A DNA stretch of 64,000 bases from a virus (IMGVR_UViG_3300035698_010295:13668-77667); one strand, 5' to 3'. Positions 4,598 through 24,190 are shown, counted from the stretch's first letter. Translations and numbers: made by a program. Notes: a model not told the origin generated them from the sequence alone.

Positions 4598-4876
4598 TTA
4601 CCATCGTATTTCCCATTGTGACCAGTCATAAGGATTTGGTGGTCCCTTATATTCATTAAACACAACGTCAAAGCCATCTTGTTGTAGCTGTTGGACAACT
4701 GCCTGTTCTAGTTCTTTAGATGGGGGTTGATCTAATCCGCGAAATGGGCCATAGTAACAACGTCGTCCTTTTTCTGCATAAGTTTTGATCTTATCATAGA
4801 TAGATTTAAGAATAGGATTTATCAGTGACCTTGATAAAGTACTTCTGGTTATTCTTCTGGCTTCTTCAGCATTCAT
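4598..4876 (-). CDS. hypothetical protein
   Basis: 92 aa ORF in operon. Confidence 0.6.
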   Translation of the reverse strand: MNAEEARRITRSTLSRSLINPILKSIYDKIKTYAEKGRRCYYGPFRGLDQPPSKELEQAVVQQLQQDGFDVVFNEYKGPPNPYDWSQWEIRW

Positions 4877-5175
4877 TTTGCTTTACCCAGTATTAGTTTA
4901 GTTGATTGTTGAATCTCAGTGAGCAGAGTTTCGAAATCAAAACTATTATCTGTCGATAGCATATCTATCGTTTCATTTATAACATGCAGTCGTAATGTTG
5001 GTGACATTTTAGCATAAGGTACGCAATGTAAGGCTCGCAGTGCATTGTATATTTTCTGGTCTGGAATAGTGCATGTGATTTTCAAACATGCATCAATGGT
5101 ACAGATAGAAAAAGACTGATTGTCAAACATCTGTTTGATAGCAACTGTAACAGCTTCTCGTTCAAAATTATTCAT
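4873..5175 (-). CDS. hypothetical protein
   Basis: 100 aa ORF, 4-nt overlap with neighbour. Confidence 0.6.
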   Translation of the reverse strand: MNNFEREAVTVAIKQMFDNQSFSICTIDACLKITCTIPDQKIYNALRALHCVPYAKMSPTLRLHVINETIDMLSTDNSFDFETLLTEIQQSTKLILGKAK

Positions 5176-5185
5176 AACTCACTTT

Positions 5186-5425
5186 TCAAGCAAAACTGAG
5201 ATCATTTGGGTTTGTTGCCGCTGCTGTATATTCATTGAAGCGGTGCCACTCACCAGCACAATTATAAACGACAAAAATCCATTTGTCGTTCCAGCTTTTT
5301 ATCCTTCCTCGTTCTGGTTCTCCAACACAAGGATGATAGTTAACCCAGCGACCTATATCATCTGCTGTTAGTTCTTGTATTTTTAGTTTATTGTCTTTAA
5401 TTAACTTCCGCAATCCGTTTGCCAT
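5186..5425 (-). CDS. hypothetical protein
   Basis: 79 aa ORF. Confidence 0.55.
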   Translation of the reverse strand: MANGLRKLIKDNKLKIQELTADDIGRWVNYHPCVGEPERGRIKSWNDKWIFVVYNCAGEWHRFNEYTAAATNPNDLSFA

Positions 5426-5743
5426 TTCACTCGCCGCCTTTCAATTTTCGTATCGCCATCTCCATAGACATAATGACAAAACCGCCCAAATTGCCCAACC
5501 AAACCCATATTCAAAATTAGTTGCAATGCCAACCTTTGCACTAATACCAGCTAGGCCTAATACCACAATAGCACCTGCAATGTTATATGTTTTCATGTAT
5601 CTGTCCTGCTTCCTATAGGCGGCTAATTCCGCTGCTTCAGCCACCACCACAACACCAATCCTAAAATCCACTTATGCATAACGTTCACCTACTTTCTGCC
5701 CTACGGGGCAATTCGTTCTTCGAGTTCTTCTAACCAAAACATT

Positions 5744-5992
5744 TCAATCACCGCCTTTTGCTGAATATCTACCTTTCGCCAACGCCCACCATGCATCCCA
5801 CGCCATAAGAAAAGTAATTACACTGAATCCAATTAATATTAGACATATTAGAATTTGTGCTATCTTGAAAGATAAATTTATATCAACAATGTGTAACATA
5901 GGTACAATACCATACCGATTGCAGAAGATAAACAGGGAACACAGGGCCGTCGATATAAGTGCATTGCATAATGTTTGTATTCGTTTAGTCAT
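5744..5992 (-). CDS. small membrane protein
   Basis: Two hydrophobic segments; AAGGAG RBS. Confidence 0.55.
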   Translation of the reverse strand: MTKRIQTLCNALISTALCSLFIFCNRYGIVPMLHIVDINLSFKIAQILICLILIGFSVITFLMAWDAWWALAKGRYSAKGGD

Positions 5993-6020
5993 ACTTTGTC
6001 TCCTTAACTACAACCTTGCA

Positions 6021-6356
6021 TCACTGGGAATTTTCATTGTTTCTTATCGCTTCACCAAGTTGTGCATTTAATGCTATGACATCAGGTTCTGTACAGAAAG
6101 CATAACTAAGGGCACTGGATGCGGTAGAACCAACACCTAAAACCCGCTCTGTACCTAATTTAGGTCGCCGTCGCACTACAATATATTCCTGGCCATGCTC
6201 TCTACCGTCAAACGTATCCCGCAGTATAAGCTCACAACGAAAGTCATCCAATTTTTGCAGTCGTAGCACGATTAATTTATTTGTTAAATCTTCAACCGTA
6301 TTGTATTCTGTGGTTACTGTTTTGCTCACCAGTTTCCTTTCACTGCTTAGAGGCAT
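6021..6356 (-). CDS. hypothetical protein
   Basis: 111 aa ORF. Confidence 0.55.
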   Translation of the reverse strand: MPLSSERKLVSKTVTTEYNTVEDLTNKLIVLRLQKLDDFRCELILRDTFDGREHGQEYIVVRRRPKLGTERVLGVGSTASSALSYAFCTEPDVIALNAQLGEAIRNNENSQ

Positions 6357-6661
6357 ATGTCACAAATTAAATTAGTCACCTTTCTGACAGCAGCCCTACC
6401 ACAAACACACTGTATCCATGTAAAGCCAGGCAAGATGCCTGAATAATCATAATACAGTATCTTATCGCAAACGCACGTGACCTCACAATCAAGAGGCCGT
6501 GCGGTTTTACGGATGATCGAACCACCGCATGACGGACAGAACTGAAAATTATTTGCCGTTACACTGAATTTTGTGTCACAGCAGCCGGGCCGCCAATACA
6601 CTCCATACGTCCAATCAGGATTGTTAATTCTTTGCCAGACGCAAAAACGTGCATCCATCAT
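6347..6661 (-). CDS. Cys-rich hypothetical protein
   Basis: CPSCG and multiple Cys pairs. Confidence 0.5.
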   Translation of the reverse strand: MMDARFCVWQRINNPDWTYGVYWRPGCCDTKFSVTANNFQFCPSCGGSIIRKTARPLDCEVTCVCDKILYYDYSGILPGFTWIQCVCGRAAVRKVTNLICDICL

Positions 6662-10435: not shown

Positions 10436-10849
10436 TCATGATAAGTACCTCGCAAATCTTTTAGCTGCTGTTTTAGCCTGGCCAAGTGTTTTAATTGTTA
10501 TAGTGCCGTGTTCACCAAACGGTGTTATGATCTTATTGCCTTTAAATGTAGATGAAAATAACTTATCACCAATTGAGAAACCAAAAATACCACGATGACT
10601 CCAACCAAACCAAGCTTGTAAAGATTCACTAAATCCTATTTGAGCAACAGTCCCCAATATATCCGCAGATTGCAGTTGACGTAAGTCACGCTTTTTACAT
10701 AGTGCTCTAGCCACATTAGATGAGCCAATATAAGACCCATCTAAATCTGAATAGCAACTAACCAATTCATAGCTACTCTTACCTGATTTAATAATCTCTC
10801 TACGGTAAAAGTAACCAGGGTAATGGCGTTCAAATTTAATTTTTTTCAT
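10436..10849 (-). CDS. hypothetical phage protein
   Basis: 137 aa, WFGWSHRG motif. Confidence 0.6.
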   Translation of the reverse strand: MKKIKFERHYPGYFYRREIIKSGKSSYELVSCYSDLDGSYIGSSNVARALCKKRDLRQLQSADILGTVAQIGFSESLQAWFGWSHRGIFGFSIGDKLFSSTFKGNKIITPFGEHGTITIKTLGQAKTAAKRFARYLS

Positions 10850-12502: not shown

Positions 12503-12587
12503 TGCCCGAAGTGGGAGTCGAACCCACACGAGAGTTAATCTCAAGGGATCTTAAATCCCTTGTGTCTGCCAATTCCACCATTCGGGC
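12503..12587 (-). tRNA. tRNA-Leu(UAA)
   Basis: GCCCGAA/TTCGGGC acceptor stem, AGGGA-TTTAAGA-TCCCT anticodon arm, long variable arm, GTGGG-TTCGACT-CCCAC T arm, discriminator A, no encoded CCA. Confidence 0.93.
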
Positions 12588-12936
12588 TATTAGCTTCTTT
12601 TAATAATTCATCTAATTCTTTAAAAGTTGGATCAGTTTGTTTAAGATGATCTATATACTTAGTATTATCTTTAATAGCACACTGTATCTTATTTGTAATA
12701 TTAACATCTTTAATAGTTTGTTGTATGATTCTATCTTGAAGCTCACCAATTATATCACGTAATGCATGAGATAACATGGTATTAACTTCTTCTTCAATAT
12801 GATCTGTGTTTCTGATACAACAAGCAGATGTACTAGTTAAATGTTTACCATCAATACTAGCATTAACTATGAGTTTGACTGTAATATCATAATTAATCTC
12901 AAAACATAATTGGTGTTCTATTTCTATATTAATCAC
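12541..12936 (-). CDS. hypothetical protein (3' end runs into the tRNA)
   Basis: 131 aa, 4-nt overlap with the Ro60 stop. Confidence 0.55.
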   Translation of the reverse strand: MINIEIEHQLCFEINYDITVKLIVNASIDGKHLTSTSACCIRNTDHIEEEVNTMLSHALRDIIGELQDRIIQQTIKDVNITNKIQCAIKDNTKYIDHLKQTDPTFKELDELLKEANSPNGGIGRHKGFKIP

Positions 12937-14492
12937 TTTGAAAACTCCGATATTACATTGGGGGTGGCAGTATCAAAACCCACAACATCTAACATACCAG
13001 GATCGCTTGGATCAGCTATTGAAAACTCAGTGGGTTCCATAGACACTACAATTAATTTAGCATAGATACCTGTTTTCTTGCGATACTTTAATAAAGCTTG
13101 TACTGGGTGAATACCACCACACCAAGTTTCATTATCGGTATAGATAACAAACGTGTCTACACTTATATTGTGTTCTAAAGCATAGATCATTGGTAATGAG
13201 CAGTCTGTCCTACCAAAAGGTAAACCTTTTACCGTTTTTACAACATCATCAAGTCTTTGTCTAGGAGATATATTTAATGTTGTTAATCTACTTGTAAAAG
13301 CTGTAATCACATAATTAGGCTCCACACTAGCAGTGATTAGAGCCATAGCTGCTGTGCCAATCCGTGGTGAAATACCAGTCATACCTGCAAGATCAGTGTG
13401 ACTCATTGAACTTGATACATCTAAGGCTAACATTGTACGTTTACACGTTGGTTTAACAGTGTCAAAAGAAAGATAGAAAGCTTGATCGAGTGCATCAATA
13501 ATACTGGTGTTTGGACTCCAAGATAATGAGCCTTTAAAACCATGTCCCTTAGTGTATGTGTTTAGTGCCACAAGTATAGAGAGTGGATGTACTCTAGCCT
13601 TTTTGAGTTGATCTTTGTCTGTTAATCTTTGAACTATTAGATTAGCAGACATTGGACCTATAGTACCGACAGATGTCATTTTGCCAAGGTTGCGAATCAT
13701 AGCAGTCAGTGGCATTTTTTCTAGCAGAGCATCCCAGATATTTTTGTTGTTTAGCATCTCAGTAGGGATAGCTTCACGAGGTAAATTGTATGCCCTGATC
13801 ATGTTATATAGGATTTCTGACTCACAAATTTGTGCATCTTCATACGCTCGTACTATGGCAGGTGCAGTTGGTGTAAGTTTGCCTTGTGTTATCCAGTGAT
13901 ACAAAGATTGATATGTTGAATTTGGTGGTATGGGATGACTCTTACGTAGAGCATCTCTATGTGACCAGCCATCTCTTTGTCGATATTTTATACATTGGTA
14001 AGCTAAAGCATCTACATCCTTGTCATTATACCAATTAGCTACAGCAGTACGTAATAAGCGACCCCACCCGCGGAATTGTTGAACAAATTCCAAGAAATGA
14101 AATAGATGTGTACCTATTCTGGCAACCTTGGGCAACTGAGCCAAGGCGTAGTTCTTTTCATCACCAATACTAGCTGCCATAGCCAAAGCAAAAAGGCAAG
14201 GGTCATTTTTAGGTGCCCTGCCTTCAGTACTAATCTCAGTGATTTTGTCAATCGTTCTTTTAGCATCCAAATCTAAGCAACGTAAAACACACTTAGCATT
14301 ATCGCTGGTGAGCTTATGTTCTTTAACATAGTAAGTGCCACCCTCTGAGCCTAGGATTAAGAATCTCTCAAGACGGTACCAATCACTAATTGACCAGACA
14401 AAGCCTCCGGCATTGTTGCCAACCTGGTTAGAACCAGGGATTGCCTCCGATTGTGGTGTTACTAGTGTGCTAAAATTCTGGTAAGTCTTCAT
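12933..14492 (-). CDS. rsr: Ro60/TROVE-domain RNA-binding protein
   Basis: NNAGGF, RFLILGSEGGTYY, KYRQRDGWSHRD, AMIRNLGKM, vWA MIDAS DVSSSM, YTDNETW, MLDVVGFD. Confidence 0.95.
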   Translation of the reverse strand: MKTYQNFSTLVTPQSEAIPGSNQVGNNAGGFVWSISDWYRLERFLILGSEGGTYYVKEHKLTSDNAKCVLRCLDLDAKRTIDKITEISTEGRAPKNDPCLFALAMAASIGDEKNYALAQLPKVARIGTHLFHFLEFVQQFRGWGRLLRTAVANWYNDKDVDALAYQCIKYRQRDGWSHRDALRKSHPIPPNSTYQSLYHWITQGKLTPTAPAIVRAYEDAQICESEILYNMIRAYNLPREAIPTEMLNNKNIWDALLEKMPLTAMIRNLGKMTSVGTIGPMSANLIVQRLTDKDQLKKARVHPLSILVALNTYTKGHGFKGSLSWSPNTSIIDALDQAFYLSFDTVKPTCKRTMLALDVSSSMSHTDLAGMTGISPRIGTAAMALITASVEPNYVITAFTSRLTTLNISPRQRLDDVVKTVKGLPFGRTDCSLPMIYALEHNISVDTFVIYTDNETWCGGIHPVQALLKYRKKTGIYAKLIVVSMEPTEFSIADPSDPGMLDVVGFDTATPNVISEFSK

Positions 14493-14511
14493 AATAGTCT
14501 CCTAAATAAAA

Positions 14512-14582
14512 TGGATAAGTTGTGTTAATAGATATGCGTGGGTACGAACCCACTATCTTGGTAACCTATTAACTTCGACCCA
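14512..14582 (-). ncRNA. Y RNA-like element with an apical T-arm hairpin
   Basis: TGGGTCGAAGTTAATAGGTTACC...GTGGG-TTCGTA-CCCAC...CTATTAAC-ACAACTTATCCA; bulged-C Ro stem, directly 5' of ro60. Confidence 0.8.
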
Positions 14583-14584
14583 AA

Positions 14585-14707
14585 CCAGAGGGCAGGACTC
14601 GAACCTGCGACCACGCTATTAAAATTAGATAACCAACAATTGCCGACCCAAAAGGATAAGTTATTAACTGTCGAGTTTACGTGCTCTGCCAACTGAGCTA
14701 CCTCTGG
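14585..14707 (-). ncRNA. tRNA-Y RNA chimera 1 (tRNA body with anticodon loop replaced by a Ro-binding stem)
   Basis: CCAGAGG/CCTCTGG acceptor, TAGCTCAGTTGGCAGAGC D arm, GCAGG-TTCGAGT-CCTGC T arm; insert ...AACTTATCC-TTTT-GGGTCGGCAATTGTTGGTTATC... Confidence 0.8.
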
Positions 14708-14711
14708 TAAT

Positions 14712-14835
14712 GTGCGGGGTGGGAGTCGAACCCACTATCTTCAGACCCTAGATAATCAATAACCTTCGACCCTATTGGGTTAGTTTATGGCTATCGAGTG
14801 TTTATTCTGACGCTCAACCGTTGAGCTTCCCGCAC
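14712..14835 (-). ncRNA. tRNA-Y RNA chimera 2
   Basis: GTGCGGG/CCCGCAC acceptor, GCTC/GAGC D stem, TCAGA/TCTGA anticodon stem enclosing a 60-nt insert ...AACTAACCC-AATA-GGGTCGAAGGTTATTGATTATC..., GTGGG-TTCGACT-CCCAC T arm. Confidence 0.8.
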
Positions 14836-14839
14836 TACA

Positions 14840-14899
14840 GACGAGCAAGTTATTGTTCTGGGGATTCTTAAGCAGATAACCCAGAACATTCGGCTCGTC
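14840..14899 (-). ncRNA. minimal Y RNA-like hairpin
   Basis: GACGAGC-CGAA-TGTTCTGGG-TTATC...CCCAGAACA-ATAACTT-GCTCGTC. Confidence 0.75.
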
Positions 14900-14912
14900 A
14901 CAATTTAATCAA

Positions 14913-15152
14913 TCATAGGTTTAATAGGGTATTGATTATAACTTCTTTGACTTTTTCATCAAGTGCTTCAACTTCTGCTAATAAGGCAGCAGGAAAGATA
15001 ATTTCTTTATCACTACTGTAAGTGCTTGAGTTAAAAGTTTCTGTAGCTACAATTTTATCACCCAATTTAACAGAGTAAGTGCCCATCAACTTTTTTTTAT
15101 TAGTGTCTTTTTCTTCATAACGCCATGATTTTGTTTCAATAGTTAGATTCAT
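14913..15152 (-). CDS. hypothetical protein
   Basis: 79 aa ORF within the RNA array. Confidence 0.6.
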   Translation of the reverse strand: MNLTIETKSWRYEEKDTNKKKLMGTYSVKLGDKIVATETFNSSTYSSDKEIIFPAALLAEVEALDEKVKEVIINTLLNL

Positions 15153-15463
15153 CTTCCCTCACAATCTGAACAAGCACAACCAACACTGTGATTTGAGTCC
15201 GCTGTTAATATTACTCCAATATGTTTTAAAAGTTTGTTTAGTTGATCATCTGTGTGATCATACCAAGGTGGATTAATTATTAGTCGATCATCTTTAACAA
15301 ACACATGAAATTTACATGATCGCCCTTTTACGTAATCCATGTGTATTGATTTATCAGGTTGAATAAACGCTAATGCTTCGTCAGCTGTAAGTTGATCACC
15401 CTGTTGAAAGTGTAGTAGACCCAATCCTAGTGGTTTAGAAAGGTCATACACTTTTTTAATCAT
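15149..15463 (-). CDS. hypothetical protein
   Basis: 104 aa, DYVKGR motif, C-terminal HxxxCxCxxC. Confidence 0.6.
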   Translation of the reverse strand: MIKKVYDLSKPLGLGLLHFQQGDQLTADEALAFIQPDKSIHMDYVKGRSCKFHVFVKDDRLIINPPWYDHTDDQLNKLLKHIGVILTADSNHSVGCACSDCEGR

Positions 15464-15513
15464 TTGATTTGGTCAACATTTGTAACATCAATCATAATAG
15501 TTTCCTTTAATAA

Positions 15514-15621
15514 TTATTCTTCGTCATCATCACCAATTAACAATGAATCCAAACACACCACACAGTAATTTGGATCATCAAATTCATCTAACTCACAATC
15601 ACAAATTTGACAATTTGCCAT
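15514..15621 (-). CDS. 35-aa acidic zinc-finger microprotein; missing from the ORF track
   Basis: MANCQICDCELDEFDDPNYCVVCLDSLLIGDDDEE; AAGGAG RBS. Confidence 0.55.
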   Translation of the reverse strand: MANCQICDCELDEFDDPNYCVVCLDSLLIGDDDEE

Positions 15622-15670
15622 AACTATCTCCTTAATATTTAATAAAACAGTGACCATTGAAAACAAAATA

Positions 15671-15729
15671 AGGGCAAGTGATTTATTGTGGGAGAAATCA
15701 CCTAAAGATAACCCACAACATTCGGCCCT
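15671..15729 (-). ncRNA. minimal Y RNA-like hairpin
   Basis: AGGGC-CGAA-TGTTGTGGG-TTATC...CCCACAATA-AATCACTT-GCCCT. Confidence 0.75.
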
Positions 15730-15732
15730 AAC

Positions 15733-15796
15733 GGCCCCTTGTGGTGTAGCTCCACTATAGCGTATATTTTCATATACATTGGTTCAACCAGGGGCC
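15733..15796 (-). ncRNA. candidate degenerate cloverleaf / multi-stem RNA
   Basis: 7-bp closing stem GGCCCCT/AGGGGCC enclosing GTATAT-GAAA-ATATAC and GTGG-AGCTACA-CCAC hairpins; lies between two Y-like elements. Confidence 0.4.
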
Positions 15797-15805
15797 TTAA
15801 AAAAG

Positions 15806-15883
15806 TAGGGCAAAATTATGTCAATTGGTAATTGAGATTAGCTTTAAAAACTGTTATGTGATAACCAACTAACTTCGGCCCTA
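15806..15883 (-). ncRNA. Y RNA-like hairpin
   Basis: TAGGGC-CGAA-GTTAGTTGG-TTATC...CCAATTGAC-ATAATTTT-GCCCTA. Confidence 0.7.
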
Positions 15884-21111: not shown

Positions 21112-21306
21112 TTTGGCACCACAGTTTGCTCCATAGCATCTTTGATGCCTTCAAAAAATTGATTTAATAAACCAATTTTGACACCTTTACAAAAGATGAA
21201 ATTTTCATTTTTATCAAACCAAGCACACCTTGTAATGACAAACTTTTTTTGAGTTAAAAGGGAAATCAAAGCCATGACTACAATTTATCTTTACTCCATC
21301 AATCAT
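21108..21306 (-). pseudogene. frameshifted tandem paralog of 20926..21111
   Basis: MIDGVKINCSHGF...KVCHY in one frame, CAWFDKNENFIFCKGVKIG in another. Confidence 0.4.
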
Positions 21307-24190
21307 TACTTTTTTCATCCAACACCTTTATAATATTACCTAAACTCAAACTTTGTAATTGTTTCTTTTGCTTCAAATTATCCAGTACGTATTTATCAGT
21401 AGGTAAGTGAAAAAGATCAATAATAGTGGCACCTCTATTATTATCCATACCAGGACGATGTATCCTGTCTTCAGATTGAAGCCTATACATGCCATTGAAA
21501 TCATTACTATAGTATACAATAGATGGTGAGGCTGTAAAAGTAAGACCTTCAGATCCAGAAGCAGGGTGACCAATAACACACAACAAAGGAAAAGCATTAC
21601 GAAATTCATTGTATTTTGGATGCGATAAATCCATAGCTTGTAAGGCTTCATTAAGGTCATAACTATTTCCCTCTTTATCGGAAACAGTCCATCCTTGGCC
21701 GTCAATCCTTATTACGATCCAGCCAGCTTCTTTAACCATTTTACAAAGATGATCTATAGATGCTGTAAAACCGGCATAGAAAACGAGTCTAGCGACTTCC
21801 ATATGTTCATCAAGTAAATTAAGTACAACATCATTTTTAGGGCAGTCAATAAAGGTTGAGTCACGCTCATAAATAGATTGAATTCCAGTGCTACCACAAT
21901 TTGGACATGGAATTTCTTCATATTCAAGAGGATCAGTGTCTGGCTTAGGATGTTGTATTGTTTTGTTCCCGAGACAAAGACTACATGTTTCGGTTCCAGT
22001 TTTGACTTTAGTATATTGAAAACCATCACTTAACTCTCGTAAGAGTGTTAGTGCTTTAATTGTGCTTGATGCTGTATTAGCGAGTGTTCTAGCAACATTT
22101 AAAATCGATTGTGTTGGTTTCACCTCAATTATGCGATACTGTTTATCCGGAAGATCAAAACAATCTTTTTTAAATTGGACTAAAACAAGTCCTTTAAGTC
22201 GTTTACTTAATTTTGAAACTTCATTTATTGATCTTGTAAACTCGTGATACCCTGGCTCAGTTAGATTGTGATTTATTGCATCTTTAAACTGACCACAAAT
22301 TTTACATTTATTATCATCATCCCACCATGTAATTAGCTTTGGATATGATCCACCATATTGTGCTTCACACATCTCTGTGAGACACAATCTATTACGAAAT
22401 TTAGCTTCAGTTCCCTCTCTTAAAAAACCGGGCATTGCTACTTCACAATTATGTGCGATAAATCCATTAGCAGAAAATTTATGTATACCTGGAACTTCTA
22501 TATCATAGACATCTTCTATAGAATCTTGTTCAACAGATTCTACTGTTGCTACTGGTGTGCTGGTCCAATTATGTCTATTTTTGATTCTCTTAATCAAGCG
22601 TTCTTTTTTCTTTGTTTGATTAAAATCAATAATATATTGAAATTTAATAGCTTCAGTATTTATTATTTGAATTTCATAACAAAAATCTGATGTATTAATT
22701 TTGCGTCCATCAATATATGATATACCTACATTTTTTTTAATTCTTATCTTACAATAAATACCTAAAGACTGCAATAATAATTGAATTTTATAGATTCTAT
22801 CTTTATCTACTTGTGCTAATGTTATTCTTAAAGTATCTTTAGAAACACTACCATCAGCATCAAACATACCTCTTAAAAATCCAATAATAAAACTACTAGA
22901 TGCAGTCATTATATTGTGGTCAATAATCTTTTTTGGTGTGATACCCCACTCACGAACAATATCATTAATTCTACCACCATGAATTATAAGGGCTTCACCA
23001 CTAGAAGTAATATTATCTTGTTCAAGTATTTTACATACTTCTGGTATCAAGCAAAAATCACCCTCAAAAAATTGAAGGCGACTATAGTAACCACTTTCTT
23101 TTTTAGTAACATTACCATCACCAAACAACAACCCTAAAATGTAACCTTCATTTTCTGATCCTGTTCCCTCCCAGTGATTGTATGATTCTGGCGTTGAAAT
23201 TTTGATTTCATCACCAATTTCTAGCTCACATAATTTTCTCCAAAGCTTTAAGCCATCATAATTAACAAGGAATTTTTGATCTTCTGTAGCTCTTACAGAA
23301 TACCCTTCATTAGTGTTAATCTTATAAAGTTGCTTAGTTCCAGTTTTAAAGAAACCATTAGTCTTTACTTTGTGGTTATCAACTAATATATTAGTCTTTT
23401 GATGAATTAACTCTTTAATTTGTTTTAGACCTTGATCCGTAGTTATCCAAGTATCATCAGAAAAGCATTGCCAAAACCAATCAGTTGGGGCCTTTGGGGC
23501 AGGTGTTCCTGTTAAACAGATAACAAACCCTTTTTCTTTGTGTTCTAATCGTACACTATTAGCCAAGTGTGATGCTGCTTGTGAACGTTGTGAAGTGGAA
23601 TTTTTAATTCGAGCACTTTCATCAAACACAACACCTTGTGGGGCAACTCCATCCCATGACTCTAAATCAATACGAAACTTATCATAAGTTAAGAGTCGCG
23701 GTTTTACCCGCGACTCCCACTTCAACAATTCCAACTCAACACTTTTAAGGGCTGATTTAGGAGCTATGTACCACCAGTCTTTTAGACCAGATTGCTCCAT
23801 AACTTCAATAGCTGCAAGTGATTTTCCAACACCCATCTCACCAGCAAACATACAATAGTGTCTGGTTAGTATGTGCCTTACTGCTTCAACTTGATGTTTA
23901 AACAATGGGCGGTCAGTGACACAATTTAATAAATCAGCATCATAAGGAGCATATGGATTTTCATTTTTAAGGTATTTTAATTGGAAAACATTTCTCGGTG
24001 TAAGAGGTGCACTCCAAATTTTACGTGGATTATTATCAAAGCCATGCCATTTTGCACCTGACATATTTTTGATTTCATCCATCAACTTGCGATTAAAACG
24101 AAACTTAAAATATATTCTACCATCTTCAACAGCAACTTGAGCAGGTATTAAACGATTTTCTGCTCGTAACTTCATCATTTGATAATCCAT
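21299..24190 (-). CDS. SNF2-like superfamily 2 helicase with intein
   Basis: EMGVGKS, VFDES, LTGTP, EGLTFT, QSEDRIHRPG. Confidence 0.9.
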   Translation of the reverse strand: MDYQMMKLRAENRLIPAQVAVEDGRIYFKFRFNRKLMDEIKNMSGAKWHGFDNNPRKIWSAPLTPRNVFQLKYLKNENPYAPYDADLLNCVTDRPLFKHQVEAVRHILTRHYCMFAGEMGVGKSLAAIEVMEQSGLKDWWYIAPKSALKSVELELLKWESRVKPRLLTYDKFRIDLESWDGVAPQGVVFDESARIKNSTSQRSQAASHLANSVRLEHKEKGFVICLTGTPAPKAPTDWFWQCFSDDTWITTDQGLKQIKELIHQKTNILVDNHKVKTNGFFKTGTKQLYKINTNEGYSVRATEDQKFLVNYDGLKLWRKLCELEIGDEIKISTPESYNHWEGTGSENEGYILGLLFGDGNVTKKESGYYSRLQFFEGDFCLIPEVCKILEQDNITSSGEALIIHGGRINDIVREWGITPKKIIDHNIMTASSSFIIGFLRGMFDADGSVSKDTLRITLAQVDKDRIYKIQLLLQSLGIYCKIRIKKNVGISYIDGRKINTSDFCYEIQIINTEAIKFQYIIDFNQTKKKERLIKRIKNRHNWTSTPVATVESVEQDSIEDVYDIEVPGIHKFSANGFIAHNCEVAMPGFLREGTEAKFRNRLCLTEMCEAQYGGSYPKLITWWDDDNKCKICGQFKDAINHNLTEPGYHEFTRSINEVSKLSKRLKGLVLVQFKKDCFDLPDKQYRIIEVKPTQSILNVARTLANTASSTIKALTLLRELSDGFQYTKVKTGTETCSLCLGNKTIQHPKPDTDPLEYEEIPCPNCGSTGIQSIYERDSTFIDCPKNDVVLNLLDEHMEVARLVFYAGFTASIDHLCKMVKEAGWIVIRIDGQGWTVSDKEGNSYDLNEALQAMDLSHPKYNEFRNAFPLLCVIGHPASGSEGLTFTASPSIVYYSNDFNGMYRLQSEDRIHRPGMDNNRGATIIDLFHLPTDKYVLDNLKQKKQLQSLSLGNIIKVLDEKSND
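22448..23467 (-). mobile_element. 340-aa intein with LAGLIDADG homing endonuclease
   Basis: Junctions WQ|CFSDDT and VYDIEVPGIHKFSANGFIAHN|C; block B ATEDQ; motifs LGLLFGDG and LRGMFDADG. Confidence 0.92.

What the first reader, a model, noticed from the sequence alone, without database searches (positions are those of the whole stretch)
12933..15883. Phage Ro60 with an array of six diverse Y-RNA-type stems sharing one consensus
Seen: upstream of and co-oriented with ro60 are six elements (14512-14582, two inside the tRNA chimeras, 14840-14899, 15671-15729, 15806-15883). They share G(G/A)GYCG(A/G)-[~9 bp stem]-TTA(T/C)C on one strand and an A-rich bulge followed by a ..CTTRYCC-like strand on the other. 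The 9-bp stems differ in sequence but keep pairing, so covariation is visible within one genome. Apical cargo differs: short loop, T arm, whole tRNA. Known: Ro60 binds the bulged-C helix of Y RNAs, bacterial GNCGAA-type motif; bacterial loci usually have about one or two Y RNAs, and some phages carry Ro60/YrlA. Inference: a modular RNP system in which one protein is directed by many adaptor RNAs. The conserved TTATC next to the stem may be a second protein-binding or pairing determinant.
Basis: partly seen in the sequence, partly recalled or inferred. Interest (0 to 1): 0.85.

Follow-up and report, generated by a model that had tools for sequence, protein, structure and literature searches.

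The report
Phage Ro60 with six Y RNAs
An uncultured salt-lake phage carries a gene for the RNA-binding ring protein Ro60 preceded by six likely partner "Y RNA" genes. Two of them are wired like ordinary tRNAs with the Ro60-docking hairpin where the anticodon should be, a layout common in databases that I could not find described in print.

Summary
The gene at 12933-14492(-) is a true Ro60 (TROVE + Ro60 vWA domains). Upstream on the same strand are exactly six modules with the Ro60-docking helix: GGGY, bulged C, GA, pairing with UU-RYCC. Each also has a 7-9 bp upper stem of different sequence and UUAYC at the loop edge. A structural scan and a covariance model find no further copy in the 64 kb window or the rest of the contig.

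Four modules are hairpin Y RNAs: D and E have short loops, F a longer loop, A a T-arm-like head. B and C score as tRNAs (43 and 48 bits) but have no anticodon loop. A loop-closed, circularly permuted Y module sits there instead, so they have YrlA's domains in normal tRNA order.

Six is the top of a continuous range, not unique: 54 other phage ro60 loci carry 0-6 modules. tRNA-Y chimeras occur in 18 of 83 phage loci and 42 of 80 bacterial loci, almost never alongside canonical YrlA. UUAUC is the known animal Y RNA/sbRNA motif.

Binding, transcription and processing are untested. This scan has already found the same class on other DNA many times. Verdict: a genuine, large Ro60/Y-RNA locus and a new variant of a known kind.

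The parts
12933..14492 (-). ro60 gene (519 aa), TROVE + Ro60 vWA domains
   Evidence: Pfam PF05731 1.9e-46 and PF25045 2.5e-62. PDB sequence hits to Xenopus Ro60 1yvp (3.6e-125), D. radiodurans Rsr 2nvo (7.6e-124) and human RO60 9nen.
14508..14587 (-). Y module A: standard-topology Y hairpin with a T-arm-like head (GUGGG-UUCGUAC-CCCAC). A U-rich tail follows, and the module ends about 20 nt before the ro60 start codon.
   Evidence: R1 36.3 bits (seed member). Rfam sbRNA RF01656 31 bits, below gathering. Fold; strands.
14584..14707 (-). tRNA-Y chimera B. It has a 7-bp acceptor stem (CCAGAGG/CCUCUGG), a D arm and a T arm. The anticodon loop is replaced by a loop-closed permuted Y module (3' strand 14674-14654, UUUU loop, 5' strand 14649-14628).
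   Evidence: Rfam tRNA 43.3 bits with a 64-nt insert. Fold. Found by the chimera scanner.
14711..14835 (-). tRNA-Y chimera C. It has a 7-bp acceptor stem (GUGCGGG/CCCGCAC), a D arm, a 5-bp anticodon-type stem and a T arm. The permuted Y module has its 3' strand at 14797-14777, an AAUA loop and its 5' strand at 14772-14751.
   Evidence: Rfam tRNA 48.3 bits with a 59-nt insert. MFE cloverleaf. Found by the chimera scanner.
14840..14899 (-). Y module D: short-loop hairpin Y RNA, ending 4 nt before position +1 of chimera C
   Evidence: R1 52.1 bits (seed member). Fold -27 kcal/mol.
15671..15729 (-). Y module E: short-loop hairpin Y RNA with a metazoan-like upper stem (GUGGG/CCCAC) and a U-rich tail
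   Evidence: R1 50.4 bits (seed member). Rfam Y_RNA RF00019 24.2 bits, below the gathering score of 38.
15806..15883 (-). Y module F: hairpin Y RNA with a 31-nt head and a UACUUUUUU tail
   Evidence: R1 35.1 bits (seed member). Rfam sbRNA 26.9 bits and Y_RNA 18.8 bits, both below gathering.

Best explanation
The region is a phage Ro60/Y-RNA locus. It has one ro60 gene and six co-oriented small-RNA genes that all present the same Ro60-docking handle: a lower helix with a bulged C, an upper helix, and UUAYC at the loop edge. Each carries a different head.

D, C, B and A are contiguous, with 0-4 nt spacers, and abut the ro60 ribosome-binding site. They are most likely made as one precursor with the ro60 mRNA. 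Host RNase P and tRNA 3'-end enzymes acting on the two tRNA-shaped members B and C would cut it apart. That cutting would also define the 3' end of D and the 5' end of A.

E and F lie 0.8-1.0 kb upstream. Each is followed by a U-rich run that could end transcription.

Each RNA is expected to bind the outer rim of a Ro60 ring through the bulged-C helix. Its head would then gate the ring or tether it to a different host factor, as Y RNA tethers Rsr to PNPase in Deinococcus. B and C supply the tRNA-like head that canonical YrlA supplies elsewhere, but with a free acceptor end.

What is shown: the sequence, structure, covariation, strand and linkage to ro60. What is inferred: transcription, processing, Ro60 binding and effector recruitment.
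For: - The protein is Ro60.
- There are six modules and no others in 64 kb or the rest of the contig.
- Each module folds into the same handle.
- The 411-nt D-C-B-A precursor keeps four separate modules in its MFE structure.
- The handle covaries on A3, an alignment of 91 distinct sequences. 83% of cells are paired. 302 cells show double-sided change against 113 in shuffles (0 of 500 shuffles reach it), and slid controls give at most 57% paired.
- All 114 model hits in the phage loci lie on the ro60 strand.
- The tRNA stems of 17 aligned chimera candidates (one is a false call) covary at 13 of 16 pairs, including all 7 acceptor pairs.
- Chimeras and canonical YrlA are nearly mutually exclusive across loci, consistent with the same role.
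- Published precedents: Ro60 binds the bulged-C helix; each characterised bacterium has at least 2 Y RNAs, one of them tRNA-like; M. smegmatis YrlA and YrlB come from one precursor, and that YrlA is cut by RNase P and gains CCA (PMC4201824). Thermus phage phiLo Ro60 binds two upstream Yrl RNAs and forms a complex with host PNPase (PMC12135203).
Against: - There is no expression or binding data. No RNA run holds the sequence.
- Promoter-like and terminator-like matches in the region are no more frequent than in shuffled sequence.
- Module B departs from the GNCGAA motif (GUCGGC). Module C has a G-A mismatch beside the bulged C.
- The phage contig encodes no RtcB or CCA-adding enzyme, and I found no other obvious RNA-repair or nuclease partner, so any partners must come from the host.
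- The alignment used for handle covariation was fitted to the model. Acceptor and T-stem pairing were selection criteria for the chimera set.
Confidence: 0.8

Rival explanations
1. The hairpins are only transcription terminators, attenuators or mRNA-stabilising stem-loops of the early operon. On this reading they are not Ro60 ligands.
For: E, F and A are each followed by a U-rich run: UUAUUUUGUUUU, UACUUUUUU and AUUUUAUUU. A sits in what would be the ro60 5' UTR.
Against: - Terminators do not need a conserved bulged-C helix, GNCGAA or UUAYC.
- These features are conserved, with covarying stems, in over 200 modules linked to ro60 on the same strand in phages and bacteria.
- D, C and B have no U tail.
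- The terminator scan found none of the six Y stems as terminators. Its one hit inside the array is the T arm of B, and the hit count does not exceed shuffles.
Confidence: 0.05
2. B and C are decoding tRNAs that carry an intron. The Y-like insert is removed to give functional tRNAs.
For: The Rfam tRNA scores of 43-48 bits exceed the gathering score. A genuine tRNA-Leu lies 350 nt downstream of ro60.
Against: - Removing the Y hairpin leaves an 18-22 nt loop, not a 7-nt anticodon loop (sequence).
- No group I intron features were found in the Rfam search.
- From general knowledge, bacteria lack the tRNA splicing endonuclease.
- The insert carries the conserved Ro60 handle, and it does so in about 80 such chimeras beside ro60 genes.
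Confidence: 0.04
3. The functional RNA is one canonical YrlA read across the C/B junction. Its parts would be the 5' Y strand and T arm of C, then the D arm and 3' Y strand of B, with the tRNA shapes being incidental.
For: Rfam YrlA scores 27.8 bits over 14658-14762. The C 5' strand can pair with the B 3' strand at -9.0 kcal/mol. In 5 of 14 tandem chimera pairs elsewhere, both registers are possible.
Against: - The score is far below the YrlA gathering score of 69.
- The acceptor hairpin this reading needs cannot form: 2 of 7 pairs, -1.1 kcal/mol. The two tRNA-type acceptor stems give -12.6 and -11.2 kcal/mol.
- Cis pairing within C is stronger (-12.3 kcal/mol). Three positions differ between the B and C upper stems in a compensatory way within each unit.
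- Chen et al. 2014 flagged exactly this T-arm/D-arm artefact for tandem tRNAs (PMC4201824).
Confidence: 0.05
4. The modules act mainly in cis, as Ro60-binding sites on the ro60 transcript that feed back on its translation or stability. On this reading they are not free adaptor RNAs.
For: A ends about 20 nt before the ro60 start codon, and D-C-B-A are contiguous with the mRNA. In the MFE of the precursor, the 5' side of A's lower stem pairs instead with sequence at the ro60 Shine-Dalgarno region.
Against: E and F are separated from ro60 by three ORFs. The tRNA-shaped units are classical processing signals. In related loci, arrays also lie downstream of ro60, as in L067 and L069. This reading could coexist with the main explanation.
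Confidence: 0.06

Closest known systems
YrlA/YrlB with Rsr (S. Typhimurium, M. smegmatis, mycobacteriophages; Rfam RF02553; Chen et al. 2014 PMC4201824; Wang et al. 2018, 10.1101/312249)
   Same: - Y RNAs are encoded next to and co-oriented with ro60.
- They share the GNCGAA-type 5' strand.
- One member has a tRNA-like head with T and D arms and an acceptor stem; another has only a T-arm (M. smegmatis YrlB, like module A).
- Several RNAs are processed from one precursor.
- M. smegmatis YrlA is opened by RNase P and gains CCA, giving a particle close to what B and C encode directly.
   Different: - YrlA is a circularly permuted tRNA. Its ends lie in the Ro60 stem, its acceptor stem is closed by a loop, and its order is T arm, acceptor, D arm.
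- B and C have normal tRNA order with open acceptor ends and a loop-closed Ro60 stem.
- The RF02553 model does not detect them (27.8 bits against 69, and only in a shifted register).
- There are six RNAs here rather than two.
- Both strands of the animal-type helix and UUAUC are present, unlike in Salmonella and M. smegmatis YrlA.
D. radiodurans Yrn1/Yrn2 and the RYPER complex (Rsr-Y RNA-PNPase)
   Same: Both strands of the metazoan-type Ro60 helix are retained, and there are several Y RNAs upstream of rsr. This system is the model for a Y RNA acting as tether and gate.
   Different: No PNPase-binding loop can be recognised here by sequence. The partner proteins are unknown, and this is a phage rather than a cell.
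Thermus phage phiLo Ro60 with Yrl1/Yrl2 (PMC12135203)
   Same: A phage-encoded Ro60 has CGAA-motif Y-like RNAs directly upstream. Binding and a ternary complex with host PNPase were shown in vitro for that phage.
   Different: That phage has two hairpin Yrls only, and no tRNA-shaped members were reported. phiLo Ro60 is too distant to appear in my PDB sequence search.
Vertebrate Y RNAs and nematode stem-bulge RNAs (Rfam RF00019, RF01656; PMC4726728, PMC4450293)
   Same: They share the lower helix GGUC-C-GA/UU-GACC with a bulged C, and an upper stem ending in GGG followed by UUAUC at the 5' edge of the loop. Module E matches the Y_RNA consensus through GUGGGUUAU...CCCAC...CACUUG.
   Different: Scores are below gathering (24 and 31 bits against 38). 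These are not Pol III genes, and they have no poly-U/La context. In animals UUAUC is tied to DNA-replication activity, which has no evident counterpart here.

Membership tests
Y RNA in the broad sense (Ro60-bound ncRNA) | Helix with a single bulged C and the conserved GGUCCGA / UUGACC-type sequence | tested here: met
   All six have GGGY (GAGC in D), a bulged C, then GA (GG in B) pairing with UU-RYCC. C has one G-A mismatch.
Y RNA in the broad sense (Ro60-bound ncRNA) | Bacterial 5'-strand motif GNCGAAN0-1G (Chen et al. 2014) | tested here: met
   Met in A, C, D, E and F. B reads GUCGGCA.
Y RNA in the broad sense (Ro60-bound ncRNA) | Encoded beside a Ro60 gene and co-oriented with it | tested here: met
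   The six lie 16-1390 nt upstream on the same strand. The same linkage holds in 114 of 114 phage hits.
Y RNA in the broad sense (Ro60-bound ncRNA) | Physically bound and stabilised by Ro60; accumulates as a discrete small RNA | not testable with these tools
   No RNA sequencing run holds the sequence. Binding requires bench work.
YrlA (RF02553) | Reaches the Rfam gathering score of 69 bits | tested here: not met
   The best hit is 27.8 bits, and it spans the C/B junction in a shifted register.
YrlA (RF02553) | Ro60 stem formed by the RNA's own 5' and 3' ends; acceptor stem closed by a loop (order T arm, acceptor, D arm) | tested here: not met
   In B and C the Ro60 stem is closed by a tetraloop and the 7-bp acceptor stem joins the ends, in the order D arm, Y module, T arm.
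YrlA (RF02553) | tRNA-like head with D arm, T arm and acceptor stem attached to a Ro60-binding stem at the anticodon position | tested here: met
   Cloverleaf folds and tRNA model alignments. The stems covary in 17 aligned chimera candidates.
tRNA (RF00005) | Cloverleaf scoring above the gathering score of 29 bits | tested here: met
   B 43.3 bits, C 48.3 bits.
tRNA (RF00005) | Seven-nucleotide anticodon loop on a 5-bp stem, enabling decoding | tested here: not met
   59- and 64-nt inserts occupy the position. No anticodon loop remains even if the Y hairpin is removed.
Metazoan Y RNA / sbRNA (RF00019, RF01656) | Reaches the gathering score of 38 bits | tested here: not met
   E scores 24.2 bits on Y_RNA. 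A and F score 31.0 and 26.9 bits on the sbRNA model.
Metazoan Y RNA / sbRNA (RF00019, RF01656) | UUAUC at the 5' edge of the loop, next to the upper stem | tested here: met
   UUAUC in B-F and UUACC in A. In a scan that did not require the motif, 97 of 227 hits on the ro60 strand carry it, against 2 of 98 on the opposite strand.

The most novel reading that the evidence does not exclude
The tRNA-order Y RNAs (B, C and their roughly 80 relatives) may be the ancestral and still widespread form of the tRNA-like Y RNA, with canonical YrlA arising from tandem copies by a shift of transcript register. Their free acceptor ends may be matured like tRNAs by RNase P, 3' trimming and CCA addition, and perhaps charged. 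Ro60 would then be delivered to tRNA-handling machinery or to tRNA-targeting host defences during infection. The UUAUC shared from phages to animals may be a universal Ro60-RNP determinant rather than a replication-specific one.
Probability: 0.3. Interest if true: 0.85.

Novelty: new variant of a known kind. Interest (0 to 1): 0.6.

Why it matters
Ro60/Y RNPs are conserved from bacteria to humans, and Ro60 is a major lupus and Sjogren autoantigen. What the Y RNA heads do remains largely open.

- **A natural test set.** This locus gives six heads on one handle next to one protein, in a small phage context that could be cloned and tested. That makes it a convenient system for asking which head recruits which factor.
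- **Missed RNAs.** The tRNA-order members show that a large fraction of Ro60-linked tRNA-like RNAs are missed by the YrlA model. Gene finders can mistake them for intron-bearing tRNAs, and earlier surveys filtered out hits overlapping tandem tRNAs.
- **Origin of YrlA.** Tandem copies elsewhere can be read in either register. This gives concrete material for the published idea that YrlA arose from a dimeric tRNA.
- **UUAUC.** Finding this motif outside animals suggests it belongs to the ancient Ro60-RNP design.

Tried and rejected
- **Expression data.** The look-up of sequencing runs listed four salt-lake DNA runs and no RNA holder. Expression could not be examined, and read laying was not used.
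- **Automatic alignment.** MAFFT with RNAalifold on the hairpin set recovered only the 4-bp lower stem, because the 3' strands were misaligned. I replaced this with a hand-given structure, a covariance model and re-alignment.
- **tRNA finders.** Default ARAGORN misses B and C. With introns allowed it finds only B and calls it tRNA-Stop, so I rejected it as a detector.
- **Promoter and terminator scan.** There were 17 promoter-like matches against 16.5 expected and 3 terminator-like matches against 2.4. A TTGATG-16-TATAAT match at 14962-14935 upstream of D is therefore only a lead.
- **Flanking ORFs.** The small ORFs (131, 79, 104, 50 and 55 aa) have no Pfam or informative PHROG hits and no counterpart in 83 related phage loci. 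I did not count them as parts of the system.
- **Phage partner enzymes.** RtcB and CCA-adding-enzyme families are absent from the 77.7 kb contig.
- **False chimera.** L012 2679-2801 passed the first chimera scanner but lacks a D arm in alignment A4. I treat it as a false call; a D-arm filter was added in later scans.
- **Reviews not held.** Two Wolin-lab reviews (PMC10870794, PMC6542706) are not in the library. I cannot exclude that the tRNA-order form is mentioned there.


Full report
**1. What is there**

The window has 34.6% G+C. It is part of a 77.7 kb IMG/VR virus record with an estimated completeness of 83%. The same DNA occurs in salt-lake metagenomes.

Genes around the finding run on the minus strand and form an early, nucleotide-metabolism-type module. 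It includes a class II ribonucleotide reductase, a Tad6-family Thoeris inhibitor, family A DNA polymerase, two ParB-like proteins, an intein-bearing SNF2 helicase and a UvrD helicase.

ORF 12933-14492(-) is a true Ro60. Pfam gives TROVE 1.9e-46 and Ro60 vWA 2.5e-62. It is about equally similar to Xenopus Ro60, Deinococcus Rsr and human RO60 among solved structures.

**2. The six elements**

Each has these features:
- a 4-bp lower stem (GGGC/GCCC, GAGC/GCUC, GGGU/ACCC or GGGU/AUCC);
- a bulged C;
- GA (GG in B) opposite UU (UA in C);
- an asymmetric internal loop that is A-rich on the 3' strand;
- a 7-9 bp upper stem;
- UUAUC (UUACC in A) immediately after the upper stem.

The six upper stems have different sequences and show no mismatch in 46 positions. 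A regex for the 5' strand hits six times in 1.4 kb, twice elsewhere on that strand and never on the other. A scanner that also demands the paired 3' strand finds only these six in 64 kb on both strands.

Covariance model R1 was built from 45 hairpin modules, including A, D, E and F. It scores D, E, A and F at 52, 50, 36 and 35 bits, which is by construction. It finds nothing else in the window or the remaining 13.7 kb of the contig.

**3. Three architectures**

D and E are short-loop hairpins. F has a 31-nt head. A has a T-arm-like head, as described for M. smegmatis YrlB (PMC4201824).

B (14584-14707) and C (14711-14835) are different. Rfam's tRNA model scores them at 43.3 and 48.3 bits, with 64- and 59-nt inserts at the anticodon position. 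They fold as cloverleaves with perfect 7-bp acceptor stems, D arms with GG, and GGUUCGA T arms.

The insert is the same Y module in circularly permuted order: the 3' strand first, then a tetraloop (AAUA or UUUU), then the 5' strand with UUAUC. The Ro60 handle therefore becomes a closed hairpin stacked where the anticodon arm should be. There is no anticodon loop, so these RNAs cannot decode.

Published YrlA has the same domains but is a permuted tRNA. Its ends lie in the Ro60 stem and its acceptor stem is loop-closed (10.1101/312249). B and C are therefore the un-permuted wiring of YrlA.

**4. Which register is real**

Rfam YrlA gives a sub-threshold hit (27.8 bits against 69) that spans the T arm of C and the D arm of B. 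Chen et al. warned about this artefact and filtered such hits out (PMC4201824).

In this window the tRNA register wins clearly:
- The two acceptor stems give -12.6 and -11.2 kcal/mol. The hairpin that YrlA would need gives -1.1 kcal/mol, with 2 of 7 pairs.
- The B and C upper stems differ at three positions in a compensatory way within each unit.
- The MFE structure of the whole 411-nt D-C-B-A stretch keeps four separate modules.

**5. Comparative evidence**

IMG/VR holds at least 375 Ro60-encoding stretches. I fetched 83 loci at 44-57% protein identity.

R1 finds 114 modules in the window plus these loci, all on the ro60 strand. On their model-fitted alignment, 83% of cells pair. 302 cells show change on both sides against 113 in shuffles (0 of 500 shuffles reach it), and slid registers give 36-57% paired. 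The caveat is that this alignment was fitted to the structure.

Combining model and scanner hits, 54 full-flank phage loci carry the following numbers of modules:

| Modules per locus | 0 | 1 | 2 | 3 | 4 | 5 | 6 |
|---|---|---|---|---|---|---|---|
| Number of loci | 13 | 7 | 12 | 10 | 7 | 3 | 2 |

Six is therefore the top of a continuous range and not unique. L069 and L081 also have six.

The 80 closest bacterial or MAG ro60 loci are from Chloroflexota, Myxococcota, Gemmatimonadota, Armatimonadota and others. They carry the same modules, with 92 hits.

**6. The tRNA-order class is common**

I wrote a scanner that requires a T arm, a 7-bp acceptor stem joining the ends, and an internal Y 5' strand. 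Its results:
- It finds such chimeras in 18 of 83 phage loci and in none of three shuffled sets.
- With an added D-arm filter, it finds them in 42 of 80 bacterial loci.
- Across all loci plus the window there are 82 chimeras.
- Many are independently reported by Rfam as 98-154 nt tRNA hits.

In an alignment of 17 chimera candidates (one, L012, is a false call), 13 of 16 tRNA-stem pairs show compensatory change, including all seven acceptor pairs. Acceptor and T-stem pairing were selection criteria, so the 100% pairing is partly by construction. The sequence diversity is not.

Canonical YrlA topology occurs in 13 of 78 phage loci and 12 of 80 bacterial loci. It almost never occurs in a locus that has chimeras: one phage locus overlaps (the false call) and two bacterial loci do. 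This fits the two wirings filling the same role. This window has chimeras and no canonical YrlA.

In 5 of 14 tandem chimera pairs elsewhere, the 3' acceptor strand of one unit is fully complementary to the 5' acceptor strand of the next. There, both registers can form. That is the intermediate expected under the dimeric-tRNA origin of YrlA proposed by Wang et al. (10.1101/312249).

Several bacterial loci place ro60 and its chimeras inside long tRNA gene arrays.

**7. UUAUC**

The Rfam consensus lines show it in both families, and module E matches GUGGGUUAU...CCCAC...CACUUG. In a scan that did not ask for the motif, 97 of 227 candidate modules on the ro60 strand carry U(U/C)A(C/U)C at the stem edge. 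On the opposite strand, 2 of 98 do. A full-text search returned no paper linking UUAUC to bacterial or phage Y RNAs.

That review states that bacterial Y RNAs are highly divergent from the vertebrate ones (PMC4726728). These modules are much closer. They retain both strands of the helix, as D. radiodurans Yrn1 does (PMC4201824), and they also have UUAUC.

**8. Likely mechanism**

*Shown:* one Ro60 gene; six co-oriented RNAs sharing a covarying Ro60-type handle with different heads; D, C, B and A contiguous with 0-4 nt spacers; A ending about 20 nt before the ro60 start codon; U-rich runs after E, F and A.

*Inferred:*
- D-C-B-A-ro60 is one transcript.
- RNase P and tRNA 3'-end enzymes cut at B and C, which also frees D and A. 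For precedent, M. smegmatis YrlA and YrlB come from one precursor, and that YrlA is cut by RNase P and receives CCA (PMC4201824).
- Each RNA binds the outer rim of Ro60. Its head then gates the ring or tethers it to host factors, as in RYPER and as shown in vitro for phage phiLo (PMC12135203).
- The contig has no RtcB or CCA-adding enzyme, so any such partners would be host proteins.

I put 0.8 on 'six genuine Ro60-partner RNAs'. I put roughly 0.4-0.5 on the specific idea that the different heads recruit different effectors.

**9. Novelty and prior notes**

Phage Ro60 with Y RNAs is known (PMC4201824, PMC12135203). The parts I found in no paper I could search are:
- the tRNA-order Y RNA;
- the size and frequency of Y arrays;
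- UUAUC outside animals.

There is also no Rfam family that detects the tRNA-order form as a Y RNA. Two relevant reviews were not available.

This scan has already reported the same class and similar arrays of three to eight on other genomes. My survey agrees with those notes.

Noticed in passing
window 10436-10849 (-): A 137-aa protein matches Pfam Tad6, a type I Thoeris inhibitor (4.4e-27). This is an anti-defence gene 2 kb downstream of ro60 in the same early block.
   Followed up: no
window 21299-24190 (-): An SNF2-type helicase is interrupted by an intein with a LAGLIDADG homing endonuclease (Intein_splicing 1.3e-16, LAGLIDADG_3 4.8e-14).
   Followed up: no
window 15735-15797 (-): Between modules F and E lies a G+C-rich multi-hairpin structure closed by GGCCCC/GGGGCC. 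Its MFE is -24.7 kcal/mol, z = -3.2 against shuffles. It has no Y motif and its role is unknown.
   Followed up: partly
window 12503-12587 (-) and 12541-12936 (-): A genuine tRNA-Leu(UAA) scoring 56 bits lies just downstream of ro60. The 131-aa ORF that overlaps the ro60 stop codon by 4 nt runs 47 nt into this tRNA. The ORF has no family hit and no counterpart in related loci, so it may be shorter than called or not a gene.
   Followed up: partly
window 14935-14962 (-): A sigma-70-like match, TTGATG-16-TATAAT (10 of 12), sits about 35 nt upstream of module D inside the end of a 79-aa ORF. It is a possible promoter for D-C-B-A-ro60, but such matches are no more frequent here than in shuffles.
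   Followed up: no
L113 (Chloroflexia MAG contig), about 4748-6555 on the minus strand of the locus: Six tandem tRNA-Y chimeras lie on the strand opposite to ro60. Three are confirmed as 121-154 nt Rfam tRNA hits.
   Followed up: partly
L138, L144, L127, L111 (Myxococcota and Chloroflexia MAG contigs): ro60 and its Y modules are embedded in long arrays of ordinary tRNA genes, with 10-29 Rfam tRNA-model hits within 7.6 kb. This suggests a mobile tRNA-array or prophage context.
   Followed up: no
L002 2903-2960: A sub-threshold type-P1 twister ribozyme match (45.6 bits against 67.2) lies about 1 kb upstream of a related phage's ro60.
   Followed up: no
L111, L113, L117, L126, L129 (tandem chimera pairs): The 3' acceptor strand of one chimera is fully complementary to the 5' acceptor strand of the next. 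The same DNA can therefore fold as two tRNA-order Y RNAs or as one canonical YrlA.
   Followed up: partly
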